Assembly: GCA_964016885.1 (NCBI GenBank)
Contig: OZ024740.1
Span: 135,470,001-135,534,000 of the forward strand
Source of the DNA: Eledone cirrhosa
Lineage: Eukaryota
Direction of reading: 5' to 3'
Length of the DNA stretch: 64,000 nt
In this document: positions 21,330-30,869 of the stretch, in pieces
How the letters are laid out: each line of letters begins with the position of its first letter
Position numbering within the stretch: position 1 is the stretch's first letter
The notes under the pieces: model-generated
Database searches by the model: none
What the model saw: the letters and a program-made list of their open reading frames with translations, nothing else
What the model was told of the DNA's origin: nothing
Made by a program: the position numbers and the translations under genes

Positions 21330-21887
21330 CATCATCATCATCATCAACGTTTAACGTCCGTGTTCCACGCTTGCATGGGTTTGGACGGGGGTAGTCCCAC
21401 TTGAGGCAAGAGTGATTGTCTTGCTCGCATAGGACTGTCTGGCAGGTTTTCTACAGTTGGATGCCCTTCCTAACACCAACCACATTTACAGTGTGGGTCT
21501 GGGAGGTTTTTACCGTGTTGCCTACACGGCCACATTACAGCGTGGACTGTGTGTTTTTTTGTCGTGACACCTACACGATCTCATTTGTTTCGGCCCGGAT
21601 GGCGCGGCACCAACATAACTTTACATAGGACGGGGTGGTGTGGATGGGGTGGGGGTGGTGGTGGTGGGACGGGGTGTATTTTGTTAGAGATGCCTACTGG
21701 CAAGGCGGGTCTTCTCTGTTACTGAGTACCGCCAAAGGTCTCGGTCCAGTGACATTGTCTTGGAGAGGTGTAAGTGTGTGAGGTCGGAGTTTATCAGCTC
21801 GTCCCAGGTTTTTCTAGGTCTGCCTATTCCGTGGCTACCGTCTATCTTTATTGCCCTGCACTTTGTTATACAGCTATCGACTTTCAA
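21330..21887 (-). mobile_element. RTE-A 3' fragment
   Basis: Matches 41402-41959 reverse complement. Confidence 0.9.
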
Positions 21888-21946
21888 TATATATATTTTA
21901 AAAAAAAATAAGACTTCAGTTGCATTTTCGATTTCATCTCTTTTTC

Positions 21947-22314
21947 TATATATATGTATATATATATATATATGTATATATATATATATGTATATATATA
22001 TATATATATATGTATATATATATATATATATATGTATATATATATATATATGTATATATATATGTATATATATATGTATATATATATGTATATATATATA
22101 TATGTGTATATATAAATATATGTAAATATATATATATATGTATATATATATATGTATATATATATATATATATATGTATATATATATGTATATATATATG
22201 TATATATATATGTATATATATATGTATATATATATGTATATATATATGTATATATATATGTATATATATATATATATACATATATATATATATATACATA
22301 TATATATATATATA
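21947..22314. repeat. (TA)n/(TATG) compound microsatellite
   Basis: Direct inspection. Confidence 0.95.
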
Positions 22315-22647
22315 CAGATCAGAGCAAACAGCACGGACACTCTATCTCAAAATTATTTTTGAAAAGCATTTAGAAATGCACAACCGGTAAAAACTTAAAA
22401 ACTTAAAACCACAACTGAATACTAACCCATACAATGACTAATACTCTTTTATTCCTAATTAAACCATTTTTCAACTGTGAACAATTTGTCAACATTTTCT
22501 ATTCCGTTTACCAATATATATATGTATATATACATATATGTATATATATATATATATATATATGTATATATATATATATGTATATATATGTATATATATA
22601 TATGTGTGTATATATATATATGTATATATATATATATGTGTATATAT

Positions 22648-22995
22648 CATCATCATCATCATCATCAACGTTTAACGTCCGTGTTCCACGCTTGCATGGG
22701 TTTGGACGGGGGTAGTCCCACTTGAGGCAAGAGTGATTGTCTTGCTCGCATAGGACTGTCTGGCAGGTTTTCTACAGTTGGATGCCCTTCCTAACACCAA
22801 CCACATTTACAGTGTGGGTCTGGGAGGTTTTTACCGTGTTGCCTACACGGCCACATTACAGCGTGGACTGTGTGTTTTTTTGTCGTGACACCTACACGAT
22901 CTCGTTTGTTTCGGCCTGGATGGCGCGGCACCAACATAACTTTACATGGAACGGGGTGGTGTGGATGGGGTGGGGGTGGTGGCGGGACGGGGTGT
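22648..22995 (-). mobile_element. RTE-A 3' UTR fragment
   Basis: Matches 249-600. Confidence 0.9.
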
Positions 22996-26908: not shown

Positions 26909-27160
26909 ATTTCATCTATTGATTCAGAGTTGCTCGTGTATTCCCAGCTCATCCATCCATAACGGTGGGAAAATTGAGGGCTAGAAGGACAGTGGTGGTG
27001 GGGTAATGGCAGGGTGTGTTGGGATGCGCCAGAGGAGGAGAGAGTTAGTTAGGCAGGTAGTAGCAGCAGCAGCAGTGGAAATGGCATGCTAGGTTTGATT
27101 GGTCGAATAGACTATGGTGGTGTGTGGGGGTGGGGGGGAGGGGGGGAGGGAAATTGTGAG

Positions 27161-30100
27161 GTAGGAACTGAGGGTCGCATGGTAAATATCCAAGTTAATA
27201 CTACATCAGTAAAATTAACAATAATAACGTCATGAAAAAAGCTACTAAGAGAAACCCTCGAAAATTTATCGCTAATACAGCAGGGAAAATTTAACGCTAA
27301 TACAGCAGGGAACATCATAATATTAACGACATGAAAAAGCTACTAAGAGAAACCCTCGAGAATTTATCGCTAATACAGCAGGGAAAATTTAACGCTAATA
27401 CAGCAGGGAACATCATAATATTAACGACATGAAAAAGCTACTAAGAGAAACCCTCGAAAATTTATCGCTAATACAGCAGGGAAAATTTAACGCTAATACA
27501 GCAGGGAACATCATAATATTAACGACATGAAAAAGCTACTAAGAGAAACCCTCGAGAATTTATCGCTAATACAGCAGGGAAAATTTAACGCTAATACAGC
27601 AGGGAACATCATAATATTAACGACATGAAAAAGCTACTAAGAGAAACCCTCGAAAATTTATCGCTAATACAGCAGGGAAAATTTAACGCTAATACAGCAG
27701 GGAACATCATAATATTAACGACAATATGTAGGCTAAAATACCTTCGTAGATTAGGTGGATGGCTGGCTGGGAAAATTGAACCAGCTCTAGTGGTACATTT
27801 TAGCAGAGAAGAATGGCAAAGTGTCTTATCTCTTCAATATTTTCAGATTGAATGAATTAGGTTAAAGACAGGGTAGTAAGCCTTAAAGAAGTGCATAGAG
27901 GGAGGGGGGGGGGTAGGAACTGAGGGTCGCATGGTAAATAACTGAGAGAGATACAATAGGATTAGAATACCGCATGGTAAATATCCAAGTTAATAAGTTA
28001 ATACTACATCAGTAAAATTAACAATAATAACGTCATGAAAAAAGCTACTAAGAGAAACCCTCGAAAATTTATCGCTAATACAGCAGGGAAAATTTAACGC
28101 TAATACAGCAGGGAACATCATAATATTAACGACATGAAAAAGCTACTAAGAGAAACCCTCGAGAATTTATCGCTAATACAGCAGGGAAAATTTAACGCTA
28201 ATACAGCAGGGAACATCATAATATTAACGACATGAAAAAGCTACTAAGAGAAACCCTCGAAAATTTATCGCTAATACAGCAGGGAAAATTTAACGCTAAT
28301 ACAGCAGGGAACATCATAATATTAACGACAATATGTAGGCTAAAATACCTTCGTAGATTAGGTGGATGGCTGGCTGGGAAAATTGAACCAGCTCTAGTGG
28401 TACATTTTAGCAGAGAAGAATGGCAAAGTGTCTTATCTCTTCAATATTTTCAGATTGAATGAATTAGGTTAAAGACAGGGTAGTAAGCCTTAAAGAAGTG
28501 CATAGAGGGGGGGGGGGGGTAGGAACTGAGGGTCGCATGGTAAATAACTGAGAGAGATACAATAGGATTAGAATACCGCATGGTAAATATCCAAGTTAAT
28601 AAGTTAATACTACATCAGTAAAATTAACAATAATAACGTCATGAAAAAAGCTACTAAGAGAAACCCTCGAAAATTTATCGCTAATACAGCAGGGAAAATT
28701 TAACGCTAATACAGCAGGGAACATCATAATATTAACGACATGAAAAAGCTACTAAGAGAAACCCTCGAGAATTTATCGCTAATACAGCAGGGAAAATTTA
28801 ACGCTAATACAGCAGGGAACATCATAATATTAACGACATGAAAAAGCTACTAAGAGAAACCCTCGAAAATTTATCGCTAATACAGCAGGGAAAATTTAAC
28901 GCTAATACAGCAGGGAACATCATAATATTAACGACAATATGTAGGCTAAAATACCTTCGTAGATTAGGTGGATGGCTGGCTGGGAAAATTGAACCAGCTC
29001 TAGTGGTACATTTTAGCAGAGAAGAATGGCAAAGTGTCTTATCTCTTCAATATTTTCAGATTGAATGAATTAGGTTAAAGACAGGGTAGTAAGCCTTAAA
29101 GAAGTGCATAGAGGGGGGGGGGTAGGAACTGAGGGTCGCATGGTAAATAACTGAGAGAGATACAATAGGATTAGAATACCGCATGGTAAATATCCAAGTT
29201 AATAAGTTAATACTACATCAGTAAAATTAACAATAATAACGTCATGAAAAAAGCTACTAAGAGAAACCCTCGAAAATTTATCGCTAATACAGCAGGGAAA
29301 ATTTAACGCTAATACAGCAGGGAACATCATAATATTAACGACATGAAAAAGCTACTAAGAGAAACCCTCGAAAATTTATCGCTAATACAGCAGGGAAAAT
29401 TTAACGCTAATACAGCAGGGAACATCATAATATTAACGACAATATGTAGGCTAAAATACCTTCGTAGATTAGGTGGATGGCTGGCTGGGAAAATTTGAAT
29501 CAGCTCAGTGGTACATTTTAGCAGAGAAGAATGGCAAAGTGTCTTATCTCTTCAATATTTTCAGATTGAATGAATTAGGTTAAAGACAGGGTAGTAAGCC
29601 TTAAAGAAGTGCATAGAGGGGGGGGGTAGGAACTGAGGGTCGCATGGTAAATAACTGAGAGAGATACAATAGGATTAGAATACCGCATGGTAAATATCCA
29701 AGTTAATAAGTTAATACTACATCAGTAAAATTAACAATAATAACGTCATGAAAAAAGCTACTAAGAGAAACCCTCGAAAATTTATCGCTAATACAGCAGG
29801 GAAAATTTAACGCTAATACAGCAGGGAACATCATAATATTAACGACATGAAAAAGCTACTAAGAGAAACCCTCGAAAATTTATCGCTAATACAGCAGGGA
29901 AAATTTAACGCTAATACAGCAGGGAACATCATAATATTAACGACAATATGTAGGCTAAAATACCTTCGTAGATTAGGTGGATGGCTGGCTGGGAAAATTT
30001 GAATCAGCTCAGTGGTACATTTTAGCAGAGAAGAATGGCAAAGTGTCTTATCTCTTCAATATTTTCAGATTGAATGAATTAGGTTAAAGACAGGGTAGTA

Positions 30101-30867
30101 AGCCTTAAAGAAGTGCATAGAGGGGGGGGGGGGTAGGAACTGAGGGTCGCATGGTAAATAACTGAGAGAGATACAATAGGATTAGAATACCGCATGGTAA
30201 ATATCCAAGTTAATAAGTTAATACTACATCAGTAAAATTAACAATAATAACGTCATGAAAAAAGCTACTAAGAGAAACCCTCGAAAATTTATCGCTAATA
30301 CAGCAGGGAAAATTTAACGCTAATACAGCAGGGAACATCATAATATTAACGACATGAAAAAGCTACTAAGAGAAACCCTCGAGAATTTATCGCTAATACA
30401 GCAGGGAAAATTTAACGCTAATACAGCAGGGAACATCATAATATTAACGACATGAAAAAGCTACTAAGAGAAACCCTCGAAAATTTATCGCTAATACAGC
30501 AGGGAAAATTTAACGCTAATACAGCAGGGAACATCATAATATTAACGACAATATGTAGGCTAAAATACCTTCGTAGATTAGGTGGATGGCTGGCTGGGAA
30601 AATTGAACCAGCTCTAGTGGTACATTTTAGCAGAGAAGAATGGCAAAGTGTCTTATCTCTTCAATATTTTCAGATTGAATGAATTAGGTTAAAGACAGGG
30701 TAGTAAGCCTTAAAGAAGTGCATAGAGGGGGGGGGGGGGGGTAGGAACTGAGGGTCGCATGGTAAATAACTGAGAGAGATACAATAGGATTAGAATACCG
30801 CATGGTAAATATCCAAGTTAATAAGTTAATACTACATCAGTAAAATTAACAATAATAACGTCATGAC
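27161..30867. repeat. Higher-order tandem array: 6 full units (~752, 606, 603, 504, 507, 608 bp) plus a partial unit, each full unit with 2-5 copies of a 98-bp subrepeat
   Basis: GTAGGAACTGAGGGTCGCATGG at 27161, 27913, 28519, 29122, 29626, 30133, 30741; subrepeat starts at 27331, 27429, 27527, 27625. Confidence 0.95.
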
Positions 30868-30869
30868 GT

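What the first reader, a model, noticed from the sequence alone, without database searches (positions are those of the whole stretch)
21330..30869. 9.5-kb block splits an old RTE codon-precisely: possible 3' transduction ending at another family's tail
The old ORF reads ..TGGCGCAGCAGT (WRSS, to 21329) and resumes ACAATCATAAATTGCTAC (TIINCYK, from 30870) with essentially no loss or duplication. Every identifiable piece in between is on the - strand: B array, B ORF, B tail, (TA)n, A 3' end, (TA)n, non-RTE pieces (22315-22515, 21888-21946), A 3' end. One end of the block is a B 5' end and the other an A tail. The simplest reading is one read-through RTE-B transcript primed at a downstream RTE-A stem-loop, carrying microsatellites and donor-flank DNA. 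Serial nesting is the alternative.
Basis: partly seen in the sequence, partly recalled or inferred. Interest (0 to 1): 0.7.

Follow-up and report, generated by a model that had tools for sequence, protein, structure and literature searches.

The report
Read-through RTE insertion carrying repeat cargo
A 9.5-kb stack of jumping-gene pieces and AT microsatellites sits cleanly inside an old retrotransposon and appears absent from another animal's DNA; it was likely pasted in at once from one over-long RNA, which would plant new insertion hotspots, but the source copy was not found.

Summary
Observation confirmed: the old RTE is split at 21329/30870 with no loss. Corrections: the right end is a truncation inside B's 5' monomer array, and the two non-RTE pieces are high-copy repeats, likely on the + strand. 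One event is favoured. The ends are complementary anomalies: an A tail on non-TA DNA with a TA 5' side (1-2 of 34 young A copies) and a B tail in TA with a clean non-TA 5' side (0 of 65). An independent sample's locus-specific contig has the length predicted for an empty allele. Cargo piece X is older than the RTE pieces and than the haplotype split. No donor is in the assembly, but B's own source is missing too: its two array variants occur at only one other, too-short copy. Best reading (0.6): 3' transduction of a read-through RTE-B RNA primed at a downstream RTE-A tail. Rivals: template switch, B first then pile-up. No editing marks; no second case among 80 B copies. The scan noted a similar 8.45-kb block elsewhere in this genome (not tested here).

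The parts
20680..21329 (+). Old RTE-type element (C), left half; target of the insertion
   Evidence: 79-83% identical to relatives in the genome; ends at WRSS
21330..21886 (-). A1: 3' end of RTE family A with five CAT repeats; inferred priming end of the block
   Evidence: 552 bp identical to at least 39 other copies; tail directly on non-TA DNA
21887..21946 (+). Y: last 60 bp of a non-coding high-copy repeat, entered at its internal short TA run
   Evidence: 328 candidates; other copies continue leftwards and often carry inverted partial copies; strand inferred
21947..22316 (.). Interrupted TA run, 370 bp
22317..22513 (+). X: truncated end of another non-coding high-copy repeat; oldest piece of the block
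   Evidence: 795 candidates; 2 substitutions of its own plus 1 recurrent in 196 bp; strand inferred
22514..22647 (.). Interrupted TA run, 134 bp
22648..22993 (-). A2: 3' end of a second young subfamily of RTE family A
   Evidence: 337 bp identical to at least 39 other copies; 97.7% to A1
22994..23483 (.). Interrupted TA run, 490 bp
23484..27175 (-). RTE family B: CAT tail, 3' UTR, intact ORF 23789-26911 (endonuclease, RT, PHD-like finger), proximal 5' UTR
   Evidence: one substitution not shared with 75 near-full-length copies
27176..30866 (-). B 5' monomer array: six monomers of 500-700 bp (98-bp subunits 5,3,3,2,2,3) and a partial seventh, truncated
   Evidence: two array variants shared with only one other locus
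30867..30869 (.). Three extra bases at the 5' junction: a 2-bp target duplication plus one base, or a fold-back of the cDNA end
   Evidence: sequence; short 2-8 bp overlaps are common at B junctions in non-TA targets
30870..31870 (+). Old RTE-type element (C), right half, in frame with the left half

Best explanation
The block is most likely one recent retrotransposition: an RTE-B copy elsewhere was likely transcribed from its monomer array through its own CAT tail and 2.1 kb of downstream TA-run pile-up, and reverse transcription likely started at the tail of the RTE-A fragment at the far end instead of at B's own tail. Shown: clean split of the target, the anatomy, near-zero age of A1, A2 and B, older X, rarity of each end's flank pattern, no donor in the assembly. 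Inferred: empty allele in another sample, read-through RNA, recognition of the A tail by the B protein (A and B share most of their last 50 bases and a 5-bp hairpin), assembly of the cargo by ordinary serial insertion into a TA run at an unseen donor.
For: (1) Target empty and TA-free in relatives, loss 0 bp, possible 2-bp duplication around the whole block. (2) Complementary ends. Young A copies with both ends in view: TA/TA 22, non/non 9, non/TA 2, TA/non 1 of 34; one of the 2 still has 9 TA bases at its tail. B copies: TA tail with a clean non-TA 5' junction in 0 of 65 after hand checks, 2 of 65 if two complex junctions are counted, and 0 of 13 in the first set. (3) Run X1: a 62-base contig spans this copy's private changes, covers 21274-21329, runs 6 unmatched letters on and stops, where an empty allele must merge with four other C copies; two reads of run X5 also stop at 21329; no run joins the flank to the tail. 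(4) X carries 2 substitutions of its own in 196 bp against 1 in 4569 bp of A1, A2 and B body (P 0.0009 Poisson, 0.005 conditional), while the empty haplotype differs from the assembly at 1 of 886 listed flank bases (hand sum). (5) Substrates are common: 9 of 77 B copies have a same-sense RTE tail within 3 kb downstream. (6) The hairpin next to the tail is kept in 9 of 9 A and B ends. (7) B's source is absent from the assembly anyway.
Against: No donor found by any junction or variant search. No second case and no donor-daughter pair among 80 near-full-length B copies of 548; the one shared-flank pair is a segmental duplication. No A-to-I marks: the TA runs hold 66 G but only 4 C interruptions on the + strand. 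The hairpin shows no compensatory change and is no more stable than shuffles (z -0.63 and -0.15). Young-on-young neighbours are common and unoriented (7 hits at 6 of 60 loci, 3 same-sense, 4 opposite), so pile-ups form easily in place once a TA run exists. The six letters beyond the junction in X1 were not printed; the empty allele rests on contig length. The 2-bp duplication has a 1 in 16 chance rate. No RNA data were examined.
Confidence: 0.6

Rival explanations
1. One event with a template switch: reverse transcription began on a separate A1 RNA and moved after 557 bases onto a B read-through RNA (or donor DNA) that carried Y, X, A2 and the TA runs but not A1.
For: Fits all single-event evidence. 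The A1-Y junction has one base of overlap. [quoted passage not shown]
Against: A1's 5' end lands on a TA run, as in ordinary A insertions (24 of 34 have a TA 5' side). No donor lacking A1 was found either.
Confidence: 0.12
2. Serial nesting, B first: B inserted bluntly into the old element, a TA run then arose at its tail, and Y, X, A2 and A1 piled in, A1 priming on the leftover CAT repeats.
For: About a third of B copies insert at non-TA sites, several after the same last three flank bases as here. A and B tails are the same repeat. X-TA-A and A-TA-B neighbours are common.
Against: X is older than B. No B copy with a clean non-TA 5' junction had gained a TA run at its tail (0 of 65 scored). 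None of about five true splits of old RTE copies held a TA run (a crude scan that missed the window's own split), and no X or Y end split a non-TA target (0 of 143, low power). A1's tail is five repeats, not longer than usual.
Confidence: 0.13
3. Serial nesting, TA first: X or Y seeded a TA run in the old element long ago; later A1 and B each hit an outer edge of the run exactly.
For: X is the oldest piece; one true edge insertion of A was seen (L148).
Against: Needs two rare edge events with no TA residue and no loss. An old insertion should leave an intermediate allele and diverged flanks; sample S1 looks empty and differs at 1 of 886 bases (about 0.03 by a hand binomial).
Confidence: 0.07
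4. DNA-level capture of a 9.5-kb stretch at a break, or an assembly or somatic artefact.
For: No editing marks; the filled junction was seen in none of the five runs laid.
Against: The left end falls exactly on the start of a retrotransposon tail; a mis-join would need two errors that restore the target to the base; the internal junctions are unique in the assembly.
Confidence: 0.05

Closest known systems
3' transduction by human and mouse L1 (PMC7265360, passages; general features recalled)
   Same: Read-through past the element's own end, priming at a downstream tail, flank carried along, one pair of junctions around element plus cargo
   Different: Here the downstream signal is the CAT tail and hairpin of a sister RTE family, not poly(A); the cargo is 1 kb of TA microsatellite and other repeats; no donor shown
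3' transduction seen in assays of R7Ag and R1Bm (PMC7265360, passages)
   Same: Shows that LINEs other than L1 can start downstream of their own end
   Different: Those are site-specific R1-clade elements in constructs; this is a natural insertion of an RTE-type element
Octopus RTE-2_OV (PMC9115989, passages and section 6)
   Same: Single ORF with endonuclease, RT and zinc finger; transcribed; polymorphic insertions reported for a related element
   Different: The passages read describe neither a monomer array nor transduction; identity to family B not tested
SaTar microsatellite-targeted arrays of guayule and rice (PMC5907723, abstract)
   Same: Linear, non-nested stacks of unrelated elements in microsatellites, the architecture of the cargo
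   Different: Those are DNA transposons (MULEs); here the stack appears to have been moved whole by an RNA route

Membership tests
LINE 3' transduction | One set of target-site junctions encloses element plus cargo | tested here: met
   0-bp loss, possible 2-bp duplication around the whole block
LINE 3' transduction | Cargo lies 3' of the element and ends in a priming tail in the same sense | tested here: met
   A1 tail at 21330, same strand as B
LINE 3' transduction | A source element with the same 3' flank exists | tested here: inconclusive
   None in this assembly; B's source is missing too
LINE 3' transduction | Only empty and complete alleles segregate | tested here: inconclusive
   One sample inferred empty from contig length, two reads of a second sample not filled; no population data
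LINE 3' transduction | RNA intermediate (read-through transcript, splicing or editing marks) | tested here: inconclusive
   No editing excess; no RNA run examined
RTE clade (families A, B) | Single ORF with AP-type endonuclease and RT | tested here: met
   1040-aa frame, Exo_endo_phos and RVT_1
RTE clade (families A, B) | Short tandem-repeat tail instead of poly(A) | tested here: met
   ATG repeats at every tail scored; feature recalled as typical of RTE
RTE clade (families A, B) | RT phylogeny groups with RTE | not tested
Penelope-like elements (pieces X, Y) | Linked RT and GIY-YIG ORF or hammerhead-bearing terminal repeats | tested here: inconclusive
   No ORF upstream in 22 longer copies and no Rfam hit above a gathering score in 4 loci; only the inverted partial copies recall such elements

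The most novel reading that the evidence does not exclude
RTE elements with microsatellite tails routinely read through and can be primed at the tail of a sister family, moving whole stacks of repeats and kilobases of TA into TA-free DNA. Each such event plants a new landing pad for the same families, a feedback that helps spread TA microsatellites through this genome.
Probability: 0.3. Interest if true: 0.68.

Novelty: new variant of a known kind. Interest (0 to 1): 0.47.

Why it matters
LINEs that recognise their own 3' end are usually thought (recalled) to copy little beyond it. A natural case in which priming skips to another family's tail would show cross-family tail recognition, give a route for moving flanking DNA in an RTE-rich animal genome, and explain how long TA runs, the main target of these elements, can appear in places that had none. 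I found no report of RTE 3' transduction in nine searches of the held library, which lacks most subscription papers. It remains a single, donor-less case.

Tried and rejected
Donor searches, all negative apart from the window: A1-Y junction with up to 2 mismatches; left part of Y plus A tail (21); A2 5' junction, strict and relaxed (26; 46 and 49: 3 other loci, none with B); X end with the TA fine pattern (27, 29: 10 others); X variant (33, 35, 38: 55 of 56 other hits scored, none shares both own changes); X-TA-A tail (51, 52: 9 others, none with this A2 and B). The inverted B copy at 16222-19266 is not the source (8 own substitutions). C2:86570152-86574316 shares both array variants but is truncated in its first monomer and has another flank. 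L312/L313 looked like a donor-daughter pair but share at least 28 kb on both sides. The nine B loci with a downstream RTE tail gave no second recognisable block. Laying runs on 20300-21940 was swamped by other A copies. One search used a mis-set outer helix and is disregarded. The scan for split elements missed the window's own split. The protein atlas gave no result. RAD run X4 gave no locus-specific cover.

Full report
Setting. The window lies on a 443-Mb contig of a 3.0-Gb animal genome rich in TA microsatellites and is crowded with single-ORF LINEs that encode an endonuclease, a reverse transcriptase and a PHD-like finger. Earlier notes of the scan call the genome an octopus; I did not test this, nor the RTE clade by a tree.

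The observation. The old element C ends at 21329 and resumes in frame at 30870. In the 11 of 14 relatives where the script located the site the two sides are contiguous, and four more copies carry the same last 24 bases followed directly by the first 6 bases of the right flank. The target had no TA run and lost nothing. Three extra bases at the right junction include the last two bases of the left flank; overlaps of 2-8 bases are common at B insertions in non-TA DNA, but two bases match by chance 1 time in 16.

Anatomy. From left to right: A1 (557 bp, tail first), Y (60 bp), TA 370, X (197 bp), TA 134, A2 (346 bp), TA 490, B with intact ORF, and 3.7 kb of B's monomer array. X and Y are ends of high-copy non-coding repeats whose other copies have unrelated flanks; their fixed end points right, so they likely lie antisense to B and could not have been copied from their own RNAs in the same pass. 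A1 joins Y at a short TA run that is internal to Y in other copies. B's right end is a truncation, as in other copies.

Ages. A1 and A2 are each identical to at least 39 other copies. The B body has one change not seen in 75 near-full-length copies (the same letter occurs in 97 shorter or related loci). X has two changes of its own and one recurrent change in 196 bp (position 22380 shared by 0 of 55, 22436 by 1 of 55, a short diverged copy). Two changes in X at the rate of the RTE pieces has P 0.0009. X is thus older, unless it came from a diverged source.

Base rates of flanks. Of 60 young A copies, 34 had both ends in view: TA/TA 22, non/non 9, non/TA 2, TA/non 1. Of 80 near-full-length B copies fetched from the first 100 listed of 548, 71 had both ends scored; I dropped 6 whose array ran on. 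Of the 10 scored TA/non, 4 were among those dropped, 2 were TA/TA and 2 non/non on reading, and 2 had an inverted RTE piece at the junction: 0 of 65 clean cases, 2 if the complex ones count. In the first set it was 0 of 13. The block has A1 as non/TA and B as TA/non, each missing exactly the flank the other holds. This is what one insertion running from A1's tail to B's 5' end leaves.

Other animals. Runs X1-X3 are one sample. In X1 a 62-base contig at single-copy depth covers 21274-21329 and six further letters that do not match the tail. Its left end is where this copy's private changes begin; its right end is where an empty allele must merge with the four C copies that share the next 30 bases. 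A filled or TA-bearing allele would give a longer contig. The six letters were not printed, so this is inference. X2 and X3 had no cover there. Two reads of X5, a second sample, also stop at 21329. The listed X1 and X2 contigs differ from the assembly at 1 of 886 flank bases (my sum), so the haplotypes split recently and X is unlikely to have aged at this site.

Donor. Eleven calls on junctions and variants found none. B's array carries two variants, in five and four places, absent from 127 fetched loci. Genome-wide, only one other locus has them: a B truncated in its first monomer, in its own TA site with another flank, a normally primed sibling. The source of this B is therefore missing from the assembly whatever the mechanism, and a missing donor does not refute transduction.

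Mechanism. A B copy in a TA-run pile-up is likely transcribed from its monomers through its tail. A and B share most of their last 50 bases and a 5-bp hairpin kept in 9 of 9 ends, without covariation and no more stable than shuffles. The B protein likely took the last such end on the RNA, A1's, and primed at a nick after 21329; synthesis ran 9.5 kb and joined the far side of the nick. Nine of 77 B copies have a same-sense RTE tail within 3 kb downstream, so such templates are common.

Against. No second case or donor-daughter pair appeared among the 80 B copies. There is no editing signature. Young elements cluster readily and in both orientations, so in-place pile-up is easy once TA exists; what it lacks is a source of TA (both of low power) and an account of X's age. 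A switch from an A1 RNA to a B read-through RNA fits equally and cannot be excluded.

Known kinds. 3' transduction is established for L1 and was seen in assays of R7Ag and R1Bm (PMC7265360, passages). Blunt, duplicating and deleting junctions are all normal for LINEs (PMC2881922, passages). An active octopus RTE is described in PMC9115989 (passages and section 6). Microsatellite-targeted stacks of elements are described in plants (PMC5907723, abstract). Nine searches showed no paper on RTE transduction or priming at a sister family's tail; only listings were seen for the other papers, no supplements were read, and the library is incomplete.

Verdict. Real feature; a single recent event about 0.75; read-through primed at A1 about 0.6; new variant of a known kind; interest 0.47.

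Noticed in passing
window 5486-7903 (+): 805-aa frame with RT and GIY-YIG domains, a Penelope-like element.
   Followed up: no
window 646-3738, 16151-18964, 38394-41600: Three more long RTE-type frames, all with a PHD-like finger after the RT; at least three young A subfamilies coexist.
   Followed up: partly
window 16222-19266 (+): B copy 99.5% identical to the block's B, tail-to-tail 4.2 kb away; not its source.
   Followed up: yes
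window 27176-30866: Two rare variants are spread over several monomers of the B array, which makes arrays usable as source fingerprints.
   Followed up: yes
L312, L313, L330-L333 (C1 341.36-341.39 Mb and 342.11-342.14 Mb): Segmental duplication of at least 28 kb at about 98% identity holding a B whose array contains a SINE-like insert.
   Followed up: partly
L282:6622-6760, L292:8276-8800, L161: 5' junctions joined to short inverted RTE pieces, suggesting fold-back or twin priming.
   Followed up: no
L155, L165: TA runs on both sides of young A copies repeat the same interruption pattern over 25-30 bases, like long target duplications.
   Followed up: no
window 21947-23483: All three TA runs are interrupted almost only by G on the + strand (66 G, 4 C); unexplained.
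   Followed up: partly
window 10948-11414: A 467-bp imperfect palindrome (86%) related to 32311-32961.
   Followed up: no
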